Under the pieces are notes generated by a model. It had not been told where the DNA came from. It saw nothing but the letters and a program-made list of their open reading frames with translations, and did no database searches. A stretch of 32,000 bases of DNA from Methanocaldococcus jannaschii DSM 2661 (lineage in GTDB: Archaea; AGJL01; Methanococci; Methanococcales; Methanocaldococcaceae), in NCBI RefSeq assembly GCF_000091665.1, contig NC_000909.1, forward strand, positions 1,026,629-1,058,628, given 5' to 3'. Numbering within the stretch: position 1 is the stretch's first letter; each line of letters begins with the position of its first letter. Shown in pieces: positions 2,201 to 15,245 of the stretch. Both the position numbers and the translations under genes were made by a program.

Positions 2201-2488
2201 TTAAGCAGCTACTTGTCTTTTTGCGTTGTAATAGCCGATATAGTAACCGATAATTATTGCTCCAATAGCTGCTTGTAAAGCAAACAATAAACTTTCAATT
2301 TCTCCGCTTGGTGGTTCCCATATTGGATGGAACCATGGTTTATATCCTAATTCCTCCACAACTTCACAACCCTGGTCGTCAGAACCACCAAAGTATCCTT
2401 CTTCTTCACCTTTACCTGCATAGATTATTAAAGGTAAGGCAATAATTATTGCAACTATTGCCAATAAAATTATATGTTTTGTTTCCAT
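2201..2488 (-). CDS. cbiN: Cobalt transport protein CbiN
   Basis: 95-aa protein with two TM segments, directly after cbiM. The cbiM end GGAGGTGAGTAA immediately precedes the ATG, so the SD lies inside the cbiM 3' end. Size and position are typical of CbiN. Confidence 0.8.
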   Translation of the reverse strand: METKHIILLAIVAIIIALPLIIYAGKGEEEGYFGGSDDQGCEVVEELGYKPWFHPIWEPPSGEIESLLFALQAAIGAIIIGYYIGYYNAKRQVAA

Positions 2489-3190
2489 TTACTCACCTCC
2501 TGCAGGAGAGGGGGTTAAATATGGTTTTAACTCCTCTTCTGGAACTACTCCTAACTTCAACAATAAGTCAGGTCTTAATTTCTTAATGTAGTCCCATATT
2601 ATAACTGTCAATATACCTTCTGCAATTGCCAATGGAACTTGTGTATATGCATAAATTACAATGAATTTTGTAAATGCCGCTGTGAATGAAGGGATTGGGA
2701 ATGCAAGTGCTAACTGAACAGCAGTTGTGACATAAGTTAGCCAGTCTCCAAACAATGCCGCGAAGAATATTCCAACTGTAGAGCTTAAACCTGCCTTCAT
2801 ACATAATCTATATACAATCACTGCGGCGGCAGGTCCAACAATACCCATTGAGAAATCGTTAGCTCCAAGTGTTGTTAAACCTCCATGAGCTAAGAATAAC
2901 GCTTGGAACAATAGAACAATAGCCGCTAACACAGCAGTTATTGGAACACCGAATAACACTGCCCCTAAACCGTTACCACATGGGTGAGAACAACTTCCAG
3001 TAACTGATGGCATCTTTAAGGAACTCAATATAAACATGTATGCCCCAGATATTGCAACTAATGGCTTCATTTCTGGACTTTCTTCAAGTAGTTTTTTTAA
3101 TTTAACAATACCGTAGGCAATTACAATACCTGAGAGAACCCACCAAACTGCACACCACATTGGTGGGAGATATCCCTCCATTATGTGCAA
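2489..3190 (-). CDS. cbiM: Cobalt ECF substrate-capture component CbiM
   Basis: The N-terminus MHIMEGYLP is the characteristic CbiM/NikM metal-binding N-terminus. Multi-TM protein and first gene of the operon. Confidence 0.9.
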   Translation of the reverse strand: MHIMEGYLPPMWCAVWWVLSGIVIAYGIVKLKKLLEESPEMKPLVAISGAYMFILSSLKMPSVTGSCSHPCGNGLGAVLFGVPITAVLAAIVLLFQALFLAHGGLTTLGANDFSMGIVGPAAAVIVYRLCMKAGLSSTVGIFFAALFGDWLTYVTTAVQLALAFPIPSFTAAFTKFIVIYAYTQVPLAIAEGILTVIIWDYIKKLRPDLLLKLGVVPEEELKPYLTPSPAGGE

Positions 3191-3471
3191 GTTATCACCC
3201 CTGAATATAATTCAAAAAAACTTAACACATTTATAGTACTCTTTATCTTATATAAATTTAACGGTATTTTATTATTAATAAAATAAACTTTAATTTTGTT
3301 ACTATTAATGAGTTATTTTGTTTTTTTCATATTTTTTATTACTTATTTAAATTAAAGACATTTTTAATAATGATTAATTTTTCTTTTTTAGTAATAAACT
3401 ATTTAAATAGTAAGGCAACTTAGGTAATATTAAGTATTACTAAAAATAAAGATATATAAAAAGTAGTTATT

Positions 3472-4116
3472 ATGGTGATGATTATGGAACTTTTATACGC
3501 AATCACTGCATTCATACTCGGAATGTTGCATGCTTTAGAGCCAGGACATGGAAAAAGTGTTGTTGCCGCCTATATATTGGGAACTAAAGCAGATTTAAAA
3601 GATGCCATCCTATTAGGAACTACAATAACCATATCCCACACAGCAGTAATATTTTTATTAGGAATCTTATCAATTTATTTATTGGAGAGCTTAAATGTTG
3701 ATGTAGTTCATGATATGATGAGCGTTGTTGGAGGTTTAATATTAATTGCCGTAGGAATTTGGATAATAAGAAGTTATCTTCACCCACATGAACATAAAGT
3801 AGATACAAAAAAGGGAGTTATCACTTTAGGATTATCTGCTGGCTTAGTTCCATGCCCAGCAGCTTTAGCGGTTTTATTATTATCAATATCATCAGGAAAT
3901 TTAATTGATGGCTTAATTTATGTTGCGATATTTAGCATTGGGCTGGCAATCTCATTAACTGGCTTAGCAGTTGCCTTTGTTGAAAGTAAGGAATTGATTA
4001 AAAAATATGTTGGAAATAGAAAAGTATCAAAACTTCCTCTAATAAGTGGCAGCATTATAATATTGATTGGATTATATACTATAGCCCATCCAATTCTTGA
4101 ACATGCGATTGTTTAA
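3472..4116 (+). CDS. NicO/RcnA-type nickel/cobalt membrane permease (direction of transport unknown)
   Basis: HALEPGHGK motif near the N-terminus, a His-rich loop (HPHEH) and about 6 TM segments. The start could instead be the ATG at 3484, which is preceded by GGTGATGA. Confidence 0.65.
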   Translation: MVMIMELLYAITAFILGMLHALEPGHGKSVVAAYILGTKADLKDAILLGTTITISHTAVIFLLGILSIYLLESLNVDVVHDMMSVVGGLILIAVGIWIIRSYLHPHEHKVDTKKGVITLGLSAGLVPCPAALAVLLLSISSGNLIDGLIYVAIFSIGLAISLTGLAVAFVESKELIKKYVGNRKVSKLPLISGSIIILIGLYTIAHPILEHAIV

Positions 4117-5154: not shown

Positions 5155-5223
5155 TGTCTTTCAAAAGTAATTAAAAATAATAATGAAAATTTGAACGTCT
5201 TCTATAAGAAGGCGTTCATTAAG
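5155..5223 (+). repeat. About 70-nt intergenic repeat with 11-bp hairpin, copy A
   Basis: About 85% identical to 13770-13837. Stem TGAACGTCTTC (5192-5202) pairs with GAAGGCGTTCA (5208-5218), including one T.G pair; loop TATAA. Confidence 0.6.
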
Positions 5224-5263
5224 TCCATACTTAATCCAAAATATTTTGAAATATACTAAAATT

Positions 5264-7720: not shown

Positions 7721-7782
7721 AACCACCTTTAAGTTATTACGAAGTGTGGCAAATTACTTATAGAAGTCTGTTTATAATTTAT

Positions 7783-8191
7783 TATTTGGGTTTTAGGATT
7801 TTTAATTTTGTTGTTTGGTTAATGGATTGTCTTGTTGAATATGTTTGGATTTTGAAAATAAGAGTATTTAGAATTTATTAATTAGTTCAAAGGATTTTTA
7901 TTTAATTTCTAAGGGTTAGCTGGTTTGATTGTTTAAAATATTTGAGTTTATTGAATTATTCAGATTTTTAAAAATTAGGATTAATTAGGTAAGTAAATAA
8001 GATTTCTCTAACAGACAAGTTAAATTTTTGAATTTAAGGAGATAAAAATACTCTGTTTTAGTAAAGAGATAAAATTTTAAATACTAAAAGGTTTATATTG
8101 TAAGATGGTTATTTATCCTTAGAAAAATATGGTATAGAAAAGCTTAAATATTAAGAGTGATGAAGTATATTATGTTGTGAATGATTGCCCT
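7783..8191 (+). promoter_or_regulatory. CRISPR leader (long-repeat element), copy 1
   Basis: About 410 bp alignable end-to-end with 22341-22750. It includes a 59-nt perfectly identical block (7995-8053 = 22554-22612) and an identical 3' junction GTGAATGATTGCCCT. A BRE/TATA-like AAAGCTTAAATATT lies about 40 nt before repeat 1. Confidence 0.85.
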
Positions 8192-9125
8192 GTTAAAATC
8201 AGACCTCTTGGAGGATGGAAATCCTTTATATTTCTCTTTCAAATAATCAACCCTTTTTAAACCTAGTTAAAATCAGACCTCTTGGAGGATGGAAATGAGC
8301 TTTTTATTATCAGATATAGTTAGAGAGTTATTTGTTAAAATCAGACCTCTTGGAGGATGGAAATAAAGAATAAAATCTCGTTTTTAGTGCTATTTATTGA
8401 GTTAAAATCAGACCTCTTGGAGGATGGAAATACTGCTTGGGGAGATGCTGAGAGAAAAGCAATGAAAGATGGTTAAAATCAGACCTCTTGGAGGATGGAA
8501 ATTCATATAAAAATTCATCACTATATTTTTCAATTAAATGTTAAAATCAGACCTCTTGGAGGATGGAAATTTAACAGTATATTCAAACCGTGAATATTCC
8601 GTTTCATCAAATGTTAAAATCAGACCTCTTTGAGGATGGAAATCTTTTTTACAGTTGTATATCGATAGATTTAAATTTAGTTAAAATCAGACCTCTTGGA
8701 GGATGGAAATTTGAATCCTGTTTTTTTAAGTTCTTCTATGAATATGTTAAAATCAGACCTCTTGGAGGATGGAAATGGGGGTCTTTGAAATTAAGAGGGT
8801 GGGGCGTGGAATTCAGTTAAAATCAGACCTCTTGGAGGATGGAAATTTTTTCTACAGTTGTAGGTAATGCAGATTTGTTTATTCCTTTATTTGTTAAAAT
8901 CAGACCTCTTGGAGGATGGAAATATTCTGATTTTCAATTTATGTTCAGCTCTTAATTTCATGTTAAAATCAGACCTCTTGGAGGATGGAAACTTTATTTT
9001 TTAACCTTCTCCGCCTCCTCTGGAGAGGATTAAAATCAGACCGTTTCGGAATGGAAATAAAATTGAGAGATTATTAGAGGAATTATATCCAGATGATTAA
9101 AATCAGACCGATTCGGAATGGAAAC
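8192..9125 (+). CRISPR. CRISPR array 1 (14 repeats, 13 spacers)
   Basis: Twelve copies of the 31-nt repeat GTTAAAATCAGACCTCTTGGAGGATGGAAAT start at 8192, 8266, 8334, 8401, 8472, 8540, 8613, 8680, 8746, 8816, 8893 and 8962. The repeat at 8613 has a G>T change and the one at 8962 ends AAAC. Two 30-nt repeats ATTAAAATCAGACCG(T/A)TTCGGAATGGAAA(T/C) follow at 9029 and 9096. Spacers are 35-46 nt and unique. Confidence 0.97.
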
Positions 9126-9219
9126 TTGTTGTAGTGGTAGCAATTATAAAATAGGAGTTATTTTCTTAATATTGAAGATAAAATATACTTAATACATCGC
9201 CAAAAAATATTAAAAATAA

Positions 9220-10245: not shown

Positions 10246-10374
10246 CCTTTCACCAATTTTCTTTTTATTATTAGGATTTTCTTTGGGAATAAATATCCTA
10301 ATTAATATTAATAATATTTCCAGACTTAACTTAATTATAATTCTCAATGTATAATTTAAGATTTTTTATAAAAC

Positions 10375-11885: not shown

Positions 11886-11915
11886 CCAATTCTTTATATG
11901 ATAAAATAAAAATAA

Positions 11916-11992
11916 CGCCCGGGAGGGGATTTGAACCCCTGAAAAAACTGGCTCCGCAGGCCAGCGCCCTATCCTGGCTAGGCGACCCGGGC
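11916..11992 (-). tRNA. tRNA-Arg (anticodon GCG), no encoded CCA
   Basis: Hand fold of the minus strand: GCCCGGG-TC-GCCT-AGCCAGGATA-GGGC-G-CTGGC-CTGCGGA-GCCAG-TTTTTTC-AGGGG-TTCAAAT-CCCCT-CCCGGGC-G. All stems pair, the D loop has GG and the T loop is TTCAAAT. The variable region is unusually 7 nt. Confidence 0.85.
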
Positions 11993-11993
11993 T

Positions 11994-12758
11994 CTATATT
12001 ACATCCCATGATTTCAACCATTGGTAATCATGTAAACATCTTACTTTATTCCTATATGAAGGTGGTATAAATGGTTCAACTATACTACAAAAAGCATGCA
12101 CTTGCTTACTTTTAAATAACCTCAAATATCTGTATTGATGTTTCTTTGAAATACGAAAATCAAATCCATACAATAATTTTAGTTTTTGTTGCAAAAACTT
12201 ATTTTCATCCAATGTAAAGCCATGTGTAGATAATTCTAACTTATAACCATTTTTCTGTTTTGTTAAGCTTCCATCACCAAGATACCACTGTGCTAATCCT
12301 TCATCATTTATTACCAAATCATTCGGTATCCTTTTTATTCCATCTGGATACCATCTTTCCCTTAATTGCCTAAACAATTCATACCTACTCGTTGATAAAA
12401 CATATAAATCAGCAATTACCTCAGAAGTTCTACGCTTATACTTATAACAGTGAAAATATACATTAAGCCCAAATTGTTGGAATCGATGTTTGACATATTC
12501 TAACCAATCATATCGCTTATTCTGTGTAATCAATAAGTTTCCTTTTTCCGTAATACATGCGTCACCAAGTAACAATCCATCGATAAATGTACGCAAATCT
12601 TCAGAAATGTTATCTAAAGTATAATCATCACACATTTTTACATCTTCCCTATATATACCATGCTTTTGCCTTGCTCGCACAACTGTTGCCTTACCACAAC
12701 CAATCAAATATGCAATTTCCCTATCACTCAGACCTTCAACAATATACTTTTCATACAA
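11994..12758 (-). CDS. Double-motif LAGLIDADG-type homing-endonuclease-like protein with N-terminal HTH
   Basis: Two LAGLIDADG-like motifs (FIDGLLLGDACI and LAQWYLGDGSL). The second is followed by the typical STHGFTLDENKFLQQKLKLLYGFDFRI segment. N-terminal HTH-like LSDREIAYLIGCGKATVVRARQKHGI. The only in-frame start before the HTH is a TTG at 12756-12758 with a weak SD. The stop TAG is 1 nt from the tRNA 5' end. Confidence 0.7.
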   Translation of the reverse strand: MYEKYIVEGLSDREIAYLIGCGKATVVRARQKHGIYREDVKMCDDYTLDNISEDLRTFIDGLLLGDACITEKGNLLITQNKRYDWLEYVKHRFQQFGLNVYFHCYKYKRRTSEVIADLYVLSTSRYELFRQLRERWYPDGIKRIPNDLVINDEGLAQWYLGDGSLTKQKNGYKLELSTHGFTLDENKFLQQKLKLLYGFDFRISKKHQYRYLRLFKSKQVHAFCSIVEPFIPPSYRNKVRCLHDYQWLKSWDVI

Positions 12759-12824
12759 CCAACCATAAGGAATAACCCATTCTTTTTTTATTCTTCTTAT
12801 ATGGATGCAACATATTCATCATCT

Positions 12825-12856
12825 CGCCCATGCTATCTGGCTAGGCGACCCGGGCT
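12825..12856 (-). pseudogene. Duplicated 5' fragment of tRNA-Arg (acceptor 5' strand plus D arm)
   Basis: Minus strand AGCCCGGGTCGCCTAGCCAGATAGCATGGGCG versus intact gene AGCCCGGGTCGCCTAGCCAGGATAGGGCG. Twenty nt are identical (12837-12856 = 11974-11993) and the match then diverges. No anticodon or T arm follows. Confidence 0.8.
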
Positions 12857-12872
12857 TTATCATTTCTACGCC

Positions 12873-12881
12873 TATTAATAA
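12873..12881 (-). promoter_or_regulatory. TATA-box-like element upstream of the tRNA 5' fragment
   Basis: Minus strand TTATTAATA spans about -26 to -18 relative to the first base of the fragment, with an A-rich stretch upstream. No comparable element lies at the right distance before the intact tRNA. Confidence 0.4.
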
Positions 12882-12985: not shown

Positions 12986-13693
12986 TTACTTACAAAGCTC
13001 CTTTAACTCTTTAACTAACTCTCTATCTATCCTGCCGTTATTTCTATCCCCTCCTTTACAAGCTGCTCCTCTAACACCAACTATGTCAGTTCCAATCTCT
13101 TTTAAAATTGGGATGTGTTCTTTTTTTATTGAACCAGCCAAAGCACACTTCAATCCATAGCTGTGAGCTTCATCAACAAACTCTGCTAAAATCTCTTTAC
13201 TTTGGAAATCAAATAATGTTTTTCCATCCTTTATTGCAGTATCTAACATTGCAACATCACAACCTGCATCTCTCGCAATTTTTGGGACTATTAATGGCTC
13301 AACAGCTCCAACTCTATAGGCATCAGCATAACCAGCTGCTACAACTATCTTATTTTCATCAATATCCTTAACAGCTCTAACAACATTTTTCATTAACTCA
13401 ACTGCCTGATAGTAGTTTTTAACTCCATACAATCCAACTTTTATATAGTCAGCTCCACTTATTGCTGCTCCAACAGCAGCTAAAGAAATTGTTCCTGGCT
13501 TATAAGGGACGTCTCCAACTGTAGCACTCACCAATAAATCTTTTGGTGTCACTTCCCTAATTGCCTTAATCATCCATGGAAAGTTAGCTCCTAAAGAACC
13601 TTCTTTTGGGTTTTTCACATCTATAATGTCTGCTCCTCCAGCTATTGCCTCTTTTGCTTCTTCAACATCTATAGGGCTTACTAATAGTATCAT
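12986..13693 (-). CDS. mfnB: (5-formylfuran-3-yl)methyl phosphate synthase (methanofuran biosynthesis)
   Basis: 235-aa TIM-barrel-like ORF starting [36 protein letters not shown]. It matches my recollection of the MfnB/UPF0264 family. GGGTG SD upstream. Confidence 0.8.
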
Positions 13694-13769: not shown

Positions 13770-13837
13770 TGTCTTTCAAAAGTATTAAAATTAATAAGGA
13801 ACACTTGAACGTCTTCTTATAGAAGGCGTTCATTAAT
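13770..13837 (+). repeat. About 70-nt intergenic repeat with 11-bp hairpin, copy B
   Basis: Aligns with 5155-5223. Stem 13806-13816 pairs with 13822-13832; loop TTATA. Confidence 0.6.
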
Positions 13838-13898
13838 ACCTCAATTATTACAAAATGTTTTGATTATTATCTTTAATGATTATAGCAAAGGTGATTAA

Positions 13899-15245
13899 AT
13901 GGGAAGATTATTTGGGACTTCTGGAATAAGAATGAAAAATTTATCTCCAAAAATTGCCTATAAAGTTGGATTAGCAGTGGCAAAAAAATATAAGAAAGTT
14001 GTAGTTGGGAGAGATACAAGGACTACAGGAAAATTAATTGAAACTGCATTAACAGCAGGAATCTTAAATGGTGGGGGGGAAGTTACAACTATAAACATAG
14101 TCCCAACACCAGTTTTAGGTTTTAATGCACGAAATTATGATGTTGGCATAATGATTACTGCCTCTCACAACCCTCCAGAATACAATGGAATAAAGCTCTT
14201 CAATAAAAATGGTTTAGCTTTTAATAAAAAAGAAGAGGATGAGATAGAGGAGATTATATTTAAAGAAGATTTTATTGAAGTTGAGTGGCATAGTGTTGGC
14301 GAGATTTGGGAAGATAGCAGGGCGATAAGGAACTATATGGAACATATTCTTAAAAATGTTGAGATAAATGAAAAATTTAATGTGGTTATTGATTGTGCAA
14401 ACGCCTCTGCTTGTTTAGTATCTCCATATTTATTTACAGATTTAGGATGTCATGTTATCTCAGTTAATAGTCACATGGATGGGAGATTTATTGGTAGATT
14501 ACCAGAGCCAGATGAAAAAAACCTCAAAAAAACTATGGATATGATTAAAGGCCTAAATATGAGTGGAGATAACTACATTGGCATAGCACACGATGGAGAT
14601 GCAGATAGAATGGTAGCAATAGATGAAAAGGGAAGATTAGCTGATTTTGATAAGCTATTAGCTGCTTTCTCAAGATATATGGTTGAAAAAACTGGAAACA
14701 AAAAGATTGTTACAACAGTTGATGCTTCAATGATTATTGATGAGTATTTAAAAGATTTAGATGTTGAGATAATAAGAACAAAAGTTGGGGATGTGGCGGT
14801 TGCTGAAGAGATGATTAAAAACTCTGCTGTTTTTGGTGGAGAGCCAAGTGGAACGTGGATTCATGCTGATATCCATCTAACTCCAGATGGAATTTTGAGT
14901 GGGCTGAGAGTTTTAGAGATGTTAGATTTCTATAACAAAAAATTATATGAAATATTGGATGAAATCCCATCTTATGTAAATTTAAGGGAGAAGATTCCAT
15001 GTGAAGATGATAAAAAAGAAAAAGTAATGAGTTATGTTATTGAAAATGGAGAGAGTTTATTTAAAACAGTTCCTGAGACCGTTGATGGAGCAAGATTTAA
15101 CTTAGAGAATGGATGGGTTTTAATAAGACCTTCGGGAACTGAGCCATACATAAGGGTTAGAGTTGAGGCAAAAAATAACAAAGATGCTAAAGAGTTGTTA
15201 GAAAAAGGGATAAAGTTAGTTAAAGAAGCTTTAAGTGCTTTATAA
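13899..15245 (+). CDS. glmM: Phosphoglucosamine mutase (phosphohexomutase family)
   Basis: Active-site TASHNPPEYNGIK and metal-binding DGDADR. Immediately upstream of glmU. GGTGA SD. Confidence 0.88.
   Translation: MGRLFGTSGIRMKNLSPKIAYKVGLAVAKKYKKVVVGRDTRTTGKLIETALTAGILNGGGEVTTINIVPTPVLGFNARNYDVGIMITASHNPPEYNGIKLFNKNGLAFNKKEEDEIEEIIFKEDFIEVEWHSVGEIWEDSRAIRNYMEHILKNVEINEKFNVVIDCANASACLVSPYLFTDLGCHVISVNSHMDGRFIGRLPEPDEKNLKKTMDMIKGLNMSGDNYIGIAHDGDADRMVAIDEKGRLADFDKLLAAFSRYMVEKTGNKKIVTTVDASMIIDEYLKDLDVEIIRTKVGDVAVAEEMIKNSAVFGGEPSGTWIHADIHLTPDGILSGLRVLEMLDFYNKKLYEILDEIPSYVNLREKIPCEDDKKEKVMSYVIENGESLFKTVPETVDGARFNLENGWVLIRPSGTEPYIRVRVEAKNNKDAKELLEKGIKLVKEALSAL

What the first reader, a model, noticed from the sequence alone, without database searches (positions are those of the whole stretch)
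11916..12881. LAGLIDADG-like ORF wedged between a promoter-bearing 5' tRNA-Arg fragment and a complete tRNA-Arg gene
Reading the minus strand, the order is:
1. A TATA-like TTATTAATA (12873-12881).
2. The first ~30 nt of tRNA-Arg, of which 20 nt are identical and the rest diverged (12825-12856).
3. About 65 nt of spacer.
4. A 254-codon ORF with two LAGLIDADG motifs and an HTH (12758-11994).
5. One nucleotide.
6. A complete tRNA-Arg(GCG) (11992-11916).

This looks like an ~0.85-kb mobile insertion into the D-loop region of the tRNA gene that carried its own replacement 5' tRNA segment, so gene function is preserved.

It is unusual in three ways. First, the duplicated and targeted part is the 5' end rather than the 3' end used by most integrases. 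Second, the cargo is a homing-endonuclease-type gene and not an integrase. Third, the intact tRNA has no obvious promoter of its own. It would then be transcribed from the old tRNA promoter through the ORF and released by RNase P right after the stop codon, making a dicistronic mRNA-tRNA.

The ORF has only a TTG start and a weak SD, so it may be poorly expressed or decaying.
Basis: partly seen in the sequence, partly recalled or inferred. Interest (0 to 1): 0.75.

Follow-up and report, generated by a model that had tools for sequence, protein, structure and literature searches.

The report
Endonuclease gene inserted at tRNA-Arg start
In Methanocaldococcus jannaschii a virus-type "selfish" DNA-cutting enzyme gene has landed between the promoter and the body of a rarely used arginine tRNA gene, and a 20-base copy of the tRNA's start keeps the tRNA whole. 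It is a tidy and apparently undescribed variant of a known kind of mobile-gene insertion, and the enzyme gene already carries a frameshift.

Summary
The window is M. jannaschii DSM 2661 and the ORF is MJ1098.

**What the ORF is**
- It is an I-SceI-like, two-domain LAGLIDADG homing endonuclease (Pfam 5e-34; AF2 model matches I-WcaI and I-SceI). Both catalytic Asp residues are kept.

**The arrangement**
- An exact 20-bp direct repeat (tRNA −1 to +19) brackets an ORF-only cassette.
- A complete tRNA-Arg(GCG) starts 1 nt after the stop codon.
- Every relative recovered with the same tRNA type (L003; L024–L027, of which L024 and L027 are probably the same sequence as L003) has the empty site.

**Evidence that the gene is foreign**
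- No protein above 41% identity (best-scoring hit 37%) was found among 1.84 billion cluster representatives.
- The closest relatives sit in phage or archaeal-virus-like contigs.
- The ORF uses CGN arginine codons, which host genes almost never use.

- The TTG start is an artefact. The ancestral ORF is 278 aa and starts at ATG 12831, at the fragment junction. It is broken by a +1 frameshift in an A7 run.
- Similarity beyond the 20 bp is not significant.
- "No own promoter" cannot be claimed. A 7/8 TATA match lies inside the ORF.
- The intact tRNA would still carry any D-loop target, which is a problem for simple homing.

**Verdict:** a new variant of known kinds (SegB–tRNA in phages; fungal mitochondrial endonuclease genes with partial duplication of the target gene). 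It is seen in a single genome, and I rate it of moderate interest.

The parts
12873..12881 (-). TATA-like box (TTATTAATA; TATTAATA is 6/8 of TWTATATA) of the former tRNA promoter. Predicted transcription start is about 12849 +/- 2, inside the tRNA fragment.
   Evidence: Sequence. TATA scan. The spacing rule of 23 +/- 2 nt comes from PMC2699501. It aligns with the promoter-proximal region of empty-site relatives.
12837..12856 (-). Direct repeat copy 1: A plus tRNA positions 1-19 (AGCCCGGGTCGCCTAGCCAG). This is the orphan 5' tRNA fragment.
   Evidence: Exact second copy of the 19-mer, with 0.00 matches expected by chance. Read.
12811..12831 (-). Original translation start region of the endonuclease gene: in-frame ATGs at 12831, 12822, 12819 and 12813, and an SD-like GAGATGAT before the last one.
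   Evidence: Translations. P0017, the 278-aa form, starts MGEMMNM.
12783..12789 (-). A7 run. One A too many relative to the intact 278-aa reading frame (a +1 frameshift site).
   Evidence: A7 in the window and 9 assemblies; A6 in 2 noisy assemblies.
11994..12831 (-). Ancestral endonuclease ORF (278 aa if the run is A6): an N-terminal three-helix HTH plus two LAGLIDADG domains. It fills the whole interval between the repeats except for 5 nt.
   Evidence: The C-terminus aligns to the end of homologue P0021.
11994..12758 (-). ORF as annotated (MJ1098, 254 aa, TTG start).
   Evidence: 100% identity to AAB99101/Q58498.
12053..12060 (-). TTCATATA, a 7/8 TATA match inside the ORF. It is a candidate internal promoter for the tRNA, with a predicted start at about 12029.
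   Evidence: Matches of 7/8 or better occur 4.5 times per kb per strand, so this could be chance.
12089..12197 (-). Interval bounded by two T5 runs (12197-12193 and 12093-12089) on the sense strand inside the ORF. They are possible partial archaeal terminators for read-through transcription.
11974..11993 (-). Direct repeat copy 2: the last base before the tRNA plus tRNA positions 1-19.
11916..11992 (-). Complete tRNA-Arg(GCG), 77 nt.
   Evidence: ARAGORN. Rfam RF00005 at 54.2 bits. Cloverleaf minimum-free-energy fold.
11942..11947 (-). T6 run in a 7-nt variable loop (TTTTTTC). Relatives have TTGTC. This is the only difference between the M. jannaschii tRNA and the empty-site alleles.
   Evidence: The Rfam score is 6 bits lower than for the L003 allele.
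11908..11912 (-). T5 run just after the tRNA 3' end, the likely terminator of the tRNA unit.

Best explanation
MJ1098 is a horizontally acquired, virus-type, free-standing I-SceI-like LAGLIDADG homing endonuclease gene. It entered the M. jannaschii chromosome as an ORF-only cassette (5 nt plus an 838-nt ORF) at position 19/20, in the D-loop, of the tRNA-Arg(GCG) gene.

A 20-bp direct duplication (tRNA -1 to +19) flanks the cassette. The native promoter plus the first 19 tRNA nucleotides now lead into the endonuclease ORF, and a complete tRNA is rebuilt 1 nt after its stop codon.

**Shown**
- the fold and the catalytic residues;
- the exact repeat;
- the empty sites in relatives;
- foreign codon usage;
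- the absence of close relatives;
- the frameshift.

**Inferred**
1. The cassette leaves no room for a promoter, so the endonuclease mRNA starts from the old tRNA promoter, at about 12849.
2. The tRNA is produced in one of two ways. RNase P may cut it out of that read-through transcript, or it may be transcribed from a fortuitous TATA inside the ORF. I rate these as roughly even.
3. The most likely origin is repair of a double-strand break in the D-loop region against a foreign (viral) template that carried endonuclease gene then tRNA-Arg. Homology would have been available only on the tRNA-body side, with a non-homologous join on the promoter side ('one-sided' or illegitimate homing). That leaves the 5' stub.
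4. The rebuilt tRNA still contains the junction sequence, so an active enzyme would be self-harmful. This fits the +1 frameshift in the A7 run, which now separates the original start and ribosome-binding site from the body. Present-day activity is probably low or nil.

The tRNA reads CGU/CGC codons, which the host almost never uses. That probably made the locus tolerant of the insertion.
For: **Fold and catalytic residues**
- Pfam LAGLIDADG_2, E = 4.9e-34.
- phmmer against PDB finds I-SceI at 1.7e-6. GLLLGDA and WYLGDG align to the I-SceI motifs that carry its catalytic Asp44/Asp145; the residue numbering is from my own knowledge and offset counting.
- AF2 model has pLDDT 90.4.
- Foldseek: I-WcaI 2.7e-11, I-SceI 2.7e-10, archaeal I-Tsp061I 2.8e-7.

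**Repeat**
- 20-bp exact repeat, 0.00 expected by chance.

**ORF-only cassette**
- The C-terminus aligns to the last residues of homologue P0021. The N-terminal motif YINNKWLIEKYEIEKLS aligns with IPYGWLYEKYIVEGLS.
- The 278-aa form P0017 starts 5 nt after the repeat.

**Empty sites**
- L003 and L024-L027 carry the identical tRNA type directly after mfnB.
- Other relatives also have mfnB followed directly by the tRNA.
- Every contig that carries the endonuclease gene is M. jannaschii itself, with 0-4 differences.

**Foreign origin**
- No protein above 41% identity (best-scoring 37%) among the 150 best of 1.84 billion representatives, in a family of 3772 hits.
- That hit sits between a family-B DNA polymerase, a primase large subunit, QueC and a PD-(D/E)XK nuclease on a 25% GC contig.
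- 33 relatives were found in IMG/VR viral contigs.
- PHROG 'homing endonuclease with LAGLIDADG motif', 6.2e-22.
- Arginine codons: 6 CGN of 19 in the ORF against 3 of 289 in host ORFs, Fisher p = 1.8e-6. There are 3 CGT in the ORF against 0 CGY in 7,800 host codons, p = 3e-5.

**Frameshift**
- A7 in the reference and 9 assemblies.

**Precedents**
- SegB is a free-standing endonuclease that cuts inside phage tRNA genes. It drives duplications by recombination between the tRNA 5' end and the segB 3' end (PMC13096335).
- Partial duplications of cob and atp6 lie next to LAGLIDADG and GIY-YIG ORFs in fungal mitochondrial DNA (PMC6279837).
Against: - No cleavage activity or target is known.
- The rebuilt tRNA is identical to the empty-site allele around the junction. 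A D-loop target would therefore persist in the host, which ordinary homing avoids.
- No donor allele with the same architecture was found anywhere.
- The 20-bp repeat has sharp edges, and that is equally what an att core or a Campbell-type crossover would leave.
- Family members are only rarely next to tRNAs: 3 of 33 viral loci, and one directly adjacent.
- The 254-aa TTG product keeps all domains. It could be made by termination-reinitiation, because the 26-codon upstream frame stops 5 nt after the TTG. 'Inactive' is therefore not shown.
- Two assemblies show A6. They also carry other homopolymer deletions, so this is probably noise, but real heterogeneity or transcript slippage is not excluded.
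Confidence: 0.6

Rival explanations
1. Site-specific or Campbell-type integration. A small circular DNA (about 863 bp: the 20-mer plus the ORF), or the last remnant of a larger integrated virus or plasmid, recombined with the chromosome through a 20-bp core identical to the tRNA 5' end. That would leave the core as a direct repeat on both sides.
For: The exact 20-bp repeat has sharp boundaries, and the flanks are not significantly similar. tRNA genes are the classical attachment sites (my own knowledge: Williams 2002; She et al.). The locus is recombination-prone: relatives carry different tRNA-Arg(GCG) types and different cargo downstream of the tRNA.
Against: There is no integrase or any other element gene. 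The ORF fills the interval to within 5 nt and 0 nt of the repeats, and the flanks are housekeeping genes. Known tRNA-targeting integrases use the 3' part of the gene, not the 5' end. The 19-mer is absent from 2.9 million viral contigs. A decayed large element would not be expected to end exactly at an intact ORF's start and stop.
Confidence: 0.17
2. Tandem duplication first. The tRNA-Arg gene was duplicated, the endonuclease gene lay or landed between the copies, and the upstream copy was later deleted down to its first 19 nt. A segmental amplification of the kind SegB drives would fit.
For: SegB-driven tandem tRNA-segB repeats form through microhomology between the tRNA 5' end and the segB 3' end, and they collapse again. 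In viral locus L037 a family member starts 16 nt after a tRNA-Lys.
Against: It needs at least two further precise deletions. No trace of tRNA positions 20-77 follows the fragment. No relative has two copies.
Confidence: 0.1
3. The tRNA has its own promoter inside the ORF (TTCATATA at 12060-12053). On this reading there is no obligatory dicistronic mRNA-tRNA precursor, and the upstream promoter serves only the endonuclease ORF. This is a rival to the expression part only.
For: The 7/8 TATA match predicts a start at about 12029. It lies downstream of both T5 runs in the ORF. The 'old' box matches only 6/8.
Against: Matches of 7/8 or better occur 4.5 times per kb per strand by composition alone. 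The upstream 9 nt (tataccacc) are not A-rich as a BRE (TFB-recognition element) should be. In M. jannaschii only 23 of the tRNA genes are predicted to have their own promoter (PMC2602779), so co-transcription is common.
Confidence: 0.45
4. An intron: the ORF is carried by an archaeal bulge-helix-bulge (BHB) intron or a group I intron in the tRNA, as with I-DmoI and I-PorI in rRNA genes.
For: LAGLIDADG ORFs in archaea are classically intron- or intein-borne. Joining fragment positions 1-19 to tRNA position 20 onwards would also give a correct tRNA.
Against: A complete tRNA follows the ORF, so no splicing is needed. No bulge-helix-bulge appears in folds of the junctions. There is no group I or group II intron hit in Rfam even at E <= 10.
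Confidence: 0.02
5. A domesticated host protein: a LAGLIDADG-plus-HTH DNA-binding regulator (WhiA-like) or an RNA maturase, kept for a host function rather than as a selfish element.
For: The original annotation was 'RNA maturase isolog'. WhiA and the bI3 maturase appear among the structural matches.
Against: It is present in one species only, and relatives lack it. Both catalytic Asp residues are retained. It is frameshifted. Its codon usage is foreign.
Confidence: 0.04

Closest known systems
Phage T4/T6 SegB (free-standing GIY-YIG homing endonuclease in the tRNA gene cluster)
   Same: A free-standing endonuclease gene lies directly beside tRNA genes. It cuts inside tRNA genes. Recombination between the tRNA 5' end and the endonuclease gene's 3' end creates duplicated tRNA-endonuclease units (PMC13096335).
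   Different: Different nuclease family (GIY-YIG versus LAGLIDADG). It sits in a phage genome, not a cellular chromosome. There it makes whole-unit tandem repeats, whereas here there is a single 20-bp stub. Cleavage is shown for SegB and untested here.
Fungal mitochondrial free-standing LAGLIDADG/GIY-YIG genes with partial duplication of the host gene (atp6, cob; Allomyces atp6)
   Same: The endonuclease ORF is inserted at the end of an essential gene, and a duplicated gene segment keeps the gene functional while leaving an orphan fragment (PMC6279837; Paquin et al. 1994, from my own knowledge).
   Different: There the 3' (C-terminal) part of a protein gene is duplicated and the endonuclease is often fused in frame. 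Here the 5' end of a tRNA gene is duplicated and the endonuclease captures the promoter.
I-SceI / I-WcaI (monomeric two-domain LAGLIDADG enzymes, Pfam PF03161)
   Same: Same fold, same Pfam family, and the catalytic Asp pair is kept.
   Different: Those enzymes are encoded in mitochondrial group I introns of rRNA genes. MJ1098 is not in an intron, has an extra N-terminal HTH, shares only about 20% identity, and comes from a hyperthermophile.
Archaeal intron-encoded LAGLIDADG endonucleases (I-DmoI, I-PorI, I-Tsp061I)
   Same: An archaeal host and the LAGLIDADG fold (I-Tsp061I at 2.8e-7).
   Different: They sit in bulge-helix-bulge introns of rRNA genes and are removed by splicing. No intron is present here.
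tRNA-gene-targeting integrative elements (tyrosine-recombinase att sites)
   Same: A direct repeat that overlaps a tRNA gene, with the gene restored after insertion.
   Different: There is no integrase, the 5' rather than the 3' part is duplicated, and the cargo is a single ORF.

Membership tests
LAGLIDADG homing endonuclease (PF03161, I-SceI-like monomer) | Two LAGLIDADG motifs, each with the catalytic acidic residue | tested here: met
   FIDGLLLGDA and LAQWYLGDG align to the two I-SceI LAGLIDADG motifs (GLILGDA and WFMDDG), which carry its catalytic Asp44/Asp145 by my own numbering. Pfam E = 4.9e-34. G-D is invariant in the 15-sequence alignment.
LAGLIDADG homing endonuclease (PF03161, I-SceI-like monomer) | Tandem alpha-beta-beta-alpha-beta-beta-alpha domains forming a DNA-binding saddle | tested here: met
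   AF2 pLDDT 90.4, pTM 0.80. Foldseek: I-WcaI 2.7e-11, I-SceI 2.7e-10, TM about 0.65-0.74.
LAGLIDADG homing endonuclease (PF03161, I-SceI-like monomer) | Site-specific double-strand cleavage of a long target | not testable with these tools
   Needs purified protein and substrates.
Homing endonuclease gene as a mobile element | Presence/absence polymorphism at the same locus in related genomes | tested here: met
   Empty sites in L003 and L024-L027 (same tRNA type) and in L001, L004, L005 and L007-L009. The endonuclease gene is found only in M. jannaschii.
Homing endonuclease gene as a mobile element | The insertion destroys the target, or the host allele carries a resistant variant | tested here: inconclusive
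   The rebuilt tRNA is identical to the empty allele across the junction. The only difference is the variable loop, TTTTTTC against TTGTC. The target is unknown.
Free-standing homing endonuclease (SegB/Mob type, intronless homing) | Not embedded in an intron or intein | tested here: met
   No intron family in Rfam at E <= 10. No BHB. The ORF stands alone between mfnB and the tRNA.
Free-standing homing endonuclease (SegB/Mob type, intronless homing) | Cuts the endonuclease-less allele near the insertion point, with co-conversion of flanks | not testable with these tools
   The variable-loop difference could be a co-converted marker. This is not tested.
tRNA-targeting integrative element | Integrase (tyrosine or serine recombinase) encoded by the element | tested here: not met
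   The only ORF between the repeats is the LAGLIDADG gene. The neighbours are mfnB (PF04476) and lysA (PF00278/PF02784).
tRNA-targeting integrative element | Direct repeat (att core) overlapping the tRNA gene | tested here: met
   20-bp exact repeat. It lies at the 5' end, which is atypical.
Archaeal BHB intron carrying a LAGLIDADG ORF | Bulge-helix-bulge at the exon-intron junctions, and a gene that needs splicing | tested here: not met
   No BHB in cofolds of the junctions. The tRNA is complete without splicing.

The most novel reading that the evidence does not exclude
The arrangement is a functional 'promoter-trap' module rather than a dead insertion.

- The endonuclease mRNA and the tRNA are made as one precursor from the tRNA promoter.
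- RNase P cleavage 1 nt after the stop codon creates both the mRNA 3' end and the tRNA 5' end.
- Slippage at the A7 run (transcriptional or ribosomal) throttles synthesis of the full 278-aa enzyme.
- The enzyme's own three CGU codons are read by the rare tRNA-Arg(GCG) released from the same transcript.

That would be an endonuclease that brings or secures the tRNA it needs, and whose 7-nt U6 variable-loop allele is the immunity mark against self-cleavage.
Probability: 0.1. Interest if true: 0.8.

Novelty: new variant of a known kind. Interest (0 to 1): 0.5.

Why it matters
- Free-standing LAGLIDADG endonuclease genes are, to my knowledge, uncommon in archaeal chromosomes, where these genes are classically intron- or intein-borne. 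This one sits in the first archaeal genome ever sequenced, and I found no paper that mentions it.
- It shows how a selfish ORF can enter an essential, probably single-copy RNA gene without an intron. It duplicates 20 bp of the gene's 5' end and takes over the promoter. This is the mirror image of the 3'-end duplications known from fungal mitochondria.
- It is direct evidence for gene flow from a virus to Methanocaldococcus, a group for which few viruses are known.
- If the enzyme is active it would be a thermostable I-SceI-type meganuclease with a conserved tRNA-gene target.
- The locus offers a natural test of whether an archaeal tRNA can be matured from the 3' end of an mRNA.

Tried and rejected
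**Searches for more copies, a donor or existing literature**
- The first genome-contig scan with the ORF found nothing.
- Scanning metagenome contigs with the 19-mer gave only empty sites plus two GC-rich chance hits.
- The same scan on viral contigs gave nothing.
- The two closest relatives (37% identity) sit in virus-like contigs with no tRNA nearby.
- Searches for 'MJ1098', and for LAGLIDADG with jannaschii and maturase, found no paper.

**Extending the repeat**
- Similarity after the core (p about 0.16) and in the leaders (best p about 0.055) is not significant. I dropped my earlier idea of a duplication from -10 to +26 with a CATG insertion.

**Fragment hairpin or mini-helix**
- The fold is -12 to -13 kcal/mol with z about -1, so not significant.

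**Intron**
- No BHB or intron evidence was found.

**Promoter assignment by TATA matching**
- It is uninformative, because 6/8 matches occur 36.6 times per kb per strand.

**Transcript evidence**
- The M. jannaschii promoter papers do not mention this tRNA, and none of the four papers whose supplements I tried has any held as text.
- Yu et al. 2019 and Dalgaard et al. 1997 are not held.

**A6 versus A7**
- The two A6 assemblies also carry other 1-nt homopolymer deletions. I treat A6 as probable noise.

**CRISPR spacers**
- No spacer in the window matches the endonuclease gene.

**Family tendency to sit by tRNAs**
- Only 3 of 33 viral loci have a tRNA within 2.5 kb.
Full report
**Identity of the window and check of the observation**

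The ORF at 12758-11994 (minus strand) is 100% identical to MJ1098 of Methanocaldococcus jannaschii DSM 2661, annotated in 1996 as 'RNA maturase isolog' and in UniProt as uncharacterized. Reading the minus strand, the order is as follows:
- mfnB, 13693-12986;
- a 130-nt spacer ending in TTATTAATA, 12881-12873;
- AGCCCGGGTCGCCTAGCCAG, 12856-12837;
- the ORF;
- one nucleotide;
- tRNA-Arg(GCG), 11992-11916 (ARAGORN; Rfam 54.2 bits);
- lysA, 11885-10569.

The 19-mer that starts the tRNA occurs exactly twice in the window, and dinucleotide shuffles expect 0.00 occurrences. With the preceding A, the repeat is 20 bp and exact.

**What the ORF is**

- Pfam gives LAGLIDADG_2 (PF03161) at 4.9e-34 over residues 57-223.
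- phmmer against PDB finds only I-SceI, at 1.7e-6. GLLLGDA and WYLGDG align to the two I-SceI motifs that carry its catalytic Asp44 and Asp145 (residue numbering from my own knowledge), so both acidic residues are kept.
- An AlphaFold2 model from a 15-sequence alignment has mean pLDDT 90.4 and pTM 0.80. It shows three N-terminal helices followed by two alpha-beta-beta-alpha-beta-beta-alpha units.
- Foldseek against PDB ranks I-WcaI (2.7e-11), I-SceI (2.7e-10) and the archaeal intron enzyme I-Tsp061I (2.8e-7) at the top. WhiA and the bI3 maturase follow further down.

It is a monomeric, two-domain, I-SceI-type LAGLIDADG protein with an N-terminal HTH-like module. That module has no Pfam hit of its own, but homologues carry HTH families there.

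**The real reading frame**

Homologues conserve a W-L-x-x-K/Q-Y motif before the HTH, for example NKDWLYQKYIVEGLS in P0010 and YINNKWLIEKYEIEKLS in P0021. In M. jannaschii the corresponding IPYGWLYEKYIVEGLS begins upstream of the annotated TTG, and that TTG encodes the L of 'WL'. No start codon lies in that frame upstream.

In the +1 frame, however, there is an ATG cluster at 12831, 12822, 12819 and 12813, preceded by GAGATGAT. That is 7/8 of the SD core GAGGTGAT, judged from my knowledge of the 16S 3' end. This frame reads MGEMMNMLHPYKKNKK and runs into an A7 tract at 12789-12783. Removing one A joins the two frames into a 278-aa protein.

Exactly that protein (P0017) is in the 90% cluster of MJ1098, from two Logan assemblies. 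The reference and nine independent assemblies have A7. The two A6 assemblies come from a series of runs that also show other 1-nt deletions in A/T runs inside lysA-flanking DNA, mfnB and glmM. I therefore take A7 as the true genome state and the gene as frameshifted.

The upstream 26-codon frame stops at 12753-12751, 5 nt past the TTG. Reinitiation at the TTG is therefore conceivable, and the 254-aa product would keep all domains. 'Inactive' is not proven.

**ORF-only cassette**

The 278-aa frame starts 5 nt after repeat copy 1 and stops immediately before repeat copy 2. The C-terminus RCLHDYQWLKSWDVI* aligns to the very end of P0021, RCLYDEEWVNKWGK*. So the ORF is complete at both ends, and the inserted DNA is essentially the ORF alone (843 nt, plus one 20-bp repeat copy).

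There is no room for a promoter of its own. The endonuclease gene must therefore be transcribed from what was the tRNA promoter. By the published M. jannaschii rule (TATA TWTATATA; 23 +/- 2 nt from its 3' edge to the start; PMC2699501), TATTAATA at 12880-12873 predicts a start near 12849, inside the tRNA stub.

**Empty sites**

A genome-contig scan with mfnB returned nine loci.
- In L001, L003, L004, L005 and L007-L009, mfnB is followed within 30-140 nt by a tRNA-Arg(GCG) with no ORF between them.
- A metagenome scan with the 19-mer returned four hydrothermal-vent contigs (L024-L027) with mfnB, about 63 nt, and then the tRNA. L024 has the same length as L003 (6,648 nt) and shows the same flanking sequence, and L027 matches them, so these are probably not independent observations.
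- The tRNA in these and in L003 is identical to the M. jannaschii tRNA except for the variable loop, TTGTC against TTTTTTC.
- Every contig that carries the endonuclease gene (L013-L023, L030-L032) differs from the window by 0-4 bases, so it is M. jannaschii itself.

mfnB is about 88% identical at the DNA level between M. jannaschii and each relative group. These are therefore different species, and whether their sites are pre-insertion or post-excision cannot be told.

**Foreign origin**

- The word-indexed search found nothing closer than 26-36% identity.
- The exhaustive HMMER scan of 1.84 billion cluster representatives found a large family: 3772 hits at E <= 1e-3 and 710 at <= 1e-10. The best-scoring non-self hit is 37% identical, and none of the 150 best listed exceeds 41%.
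- That hit (P0021) lies between a family-B DNA polymerase, a primase large subunit, QueC and a PD-(D/E)XK nuclease on a 25% GC contig. I read this as an archaeal-virus-like context.
- The second-best hit sits among small unannotated ORFs.
- Thirty-three relatives are in IMG/VR viral contigs and 13 in cultured phages.
- The best PHROG is 'homing endonuclease with LAGLIDADG motif', 6.2e-22.
- GC content of the ORF (31%) is host-like, but arginine codons are not. The ORF uses 3 CGT and 3 CGA among 19 arginine codons. The 24 host ORFs of the window (7,800 codons in the count) use 0 CGT, 0 CGC, 2 CGA and 1 CGG against 286 AGR (Fisher p = 1.8e-6; CGY p = 3e-5).

**What this says about the tRNA**

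tRNA-Arg(GCG) reads CGU and CGC, which the host hardly uses. That low demand plausibly explains three things:
- the locus tolerated the insertion;
- the gene carries an odd 7-nt, U6 variable loop, 6 bits lower in Rfam than the L003 allele, with a T6 run that would look like an archaeal terminator;
- relatives with about 88% identical mfnB carry tRNA-Arg(GCG) genes that are only 54-68% identical to this type.

**How the tRNA is expressed**

Sequence cannot decide this.
- The old box is a 6/8 TATA match. Such matches occur 36.6 times per kb per strand.
- Inside the ORF there is a 7/8 match, TTCATATA at 12060-12053, with a predicted start near 12029. It lies downstream of two T5 runs at 12197-12193 and 12093-12089.
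- Matches of 7/8 or better occur 4.5 times per kb per strand.
- In M. jannaschii only 23 of the tRNA genes are predicted to have their own promoter (PMC2602779), so co-transcription is ordinary.

I rate read-through plus RNase P processing and an internal promoter as roughly equally likely.

**How it got there**

The robust footprint is a 20-bp exact direct repeat with sharp edges. Extensions on either side are not significant. The junction falls after tRNA position 19, in the D-loop.

The preferred scenario has four steps:
1. A double-strand break forms in or near the D-loop, possibly made by the incoming enzyme.
2. The break is repaired on a foreign template carrying endonuclease gene then tRNA-Arg.
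3. The tRNA-body side uses homology, and so copies the donor's tRNA 5' end, its leader and the ORF.
4. The promoter side is joined non-homologously.

This leaves promoter, tRNA 1-19, ORF, then full tRNA, and it could co-convert the variable loop. Illegitimate homing with one-sided homology, leaving duplicated exon sequence, was described for phage T4 (Parker et al. 1999, from my own knowledge). SegB-driven recombination between a tRNA 5' end and the segB 3' end is documented (PMC13096335).

The scenario has an awkward consequence. The rebuilt tRNA keeps the junction sequence, so an enzyme that recognises it would keep cutting its host. The A7 frameshift would then be the expected outcome. Alternatively, the target includes the variable loop, and TTTTTTC is the resistant allele.

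**Rivals**

- An att-type or Campbell-type integration of a small circle or decayed element fits the sharp 20-bp repeat. Against it: there is no integrase, the 5' end is the atypical end, and the ORF fits the interval exactly.
- Tandem tRNA duplication followed by decay needs several extra precise deletions.
- An intron is excluded. The tRNA is complete, no BHB forms and Rfam finds no intron family.
- Domestication is unlikely, given the single-species presence, the frameshift and the foreign codons.

**Comparison with known systems and novelty**

In function it resembles free-standing phage endonucleases next to tRNA genes (SegB). It also resembles fungal mitochondrial endonuclease genes that insert at a gene's end and leave a partial duplicate (cob and atp6, PMC6279837).

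It differs in four ways:
- it is an I-SceI-type LAGLIDADG gene in an archaeal chromosome, outside any intron or intein;
- it duplicates the 5' end of a tRNA gene;
- it captures the tRNA promoter;
- it abuts the tRNA by 1 nt.

No paper in the searchable library mentions MJ1098. I class it as a new variant of a known kind, seen in one genome and probably decaying. Interest is moderate (0.5). It would be higher if the co-transcription, slippage and immunity reading proved true.

Noticed in passing
window 11994-12758 versus all other long ORFs: Host ORFs in the window contain no CGT or CGC codon in about 7,800 codons. The endonuclease ORF has three CGT codons (12593, 12434, 12155) and three CGA codons. 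The inserted gene therefore needs the rare tRNA-Arg(GCG) that it sits next to.
   Followed up: partly
window 11942-11947; L003 3272-3346: The M. jannaschii tRNA-Arg(GCG) has a 7-nt variable loop with a T6 run, which looks like an archaeal terminator. Relatives have a normal 5-nt TTGTC loop. This is the only difference, and it costs 6 bits in Rfam.
   Followed up: partly
L001 5737-5810, L004 5749-5822, L005 5841-5917, L007-L009: At the same mfnB-linked locus, species with about 88% identical mfnB carry tRNA-Arg(GCG) genes only 54-68% identical to the M. jannaschii type. The M. jannaschii/L003 type is the outlier, which suggests replacement or very fast evolution of this little-used tRNA.
   Followed up: partly
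L003 3328-6513; L001 5811-5938; L004 5823-6025; L006 5709-6170: The DNA downstream of the tRNA is variable among relatives. L003 has an HExxH protein and a 939-aa type I restriction subunit. L001 and L004 have hairpin-rich inserts of 120-200 nt before lysA. L006 has no tRNA and different genes. The locus looks like a recombination hot spot.
   Followed up: partly
window 12783-12789, 13121-13127, 13982-13988, 10262-10266, 14937-14942: Several Logan assemblies of M. jannaschii runs (ERR97657xx) carry 1-nt deletions in A/T homopolymers, including the A6 form that restores the 278-aa ORF. I cannot tell whether this is sequencing noise, culture heterogeneity or RNA-derived slippage.
   Followed up: partly
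L032 1-30: This JGI contig begins with a Nextera transposase adapter (AGATGTGTATAAGAGACAG) fused to window position 12838, and runs through the endonuclease gene, the tRNA and nearly all of lysA to 10592. The library type is unknown, so no transcript inference was drawn.
   Followed up: no
window 8169-9135 and 22745-23618; 7781-8080 and 22340-22639: There are two CRISPR arrays, each next to an approximately 300-nt leader-like repeat (87% identical to each other). The first array switches repeat type near 9029 (GTTAAAATCAGACCTCTTGGAGGATGGAAAT to ATTAAAATCAGACCGTTTCGGAATGGAAAT). No spacer matches the endonuclease gene.
   Followed up: partly
window 5170-5249 and 13784-13863: An 80-nt intergenic repeat (81% identical) contains the hairpin GAACGTCTTC...GAAGGCGTTC. 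One copy lies in the mfnB/glmM divergent region. There is no Rfam match.
   Followed up: no
L037 2346-3400: In a GC-rich viral contig, a 29%-identical family member (ORF 2435-3400) starts 16 nt after a tRNA-Lys(ttt), with a second tRNA-Lys upstream. L034 has three tRNA-Lys genes 1.6 kb upstream. No repeat of tRNA sequence flanks them.
   Followed up: partly
window 2489-3190 (-) and 3472-4116 (+): These two ORFs fit the window's codon usage worse than the endonuclease gene does. They were not examined further.
   Followed up: no
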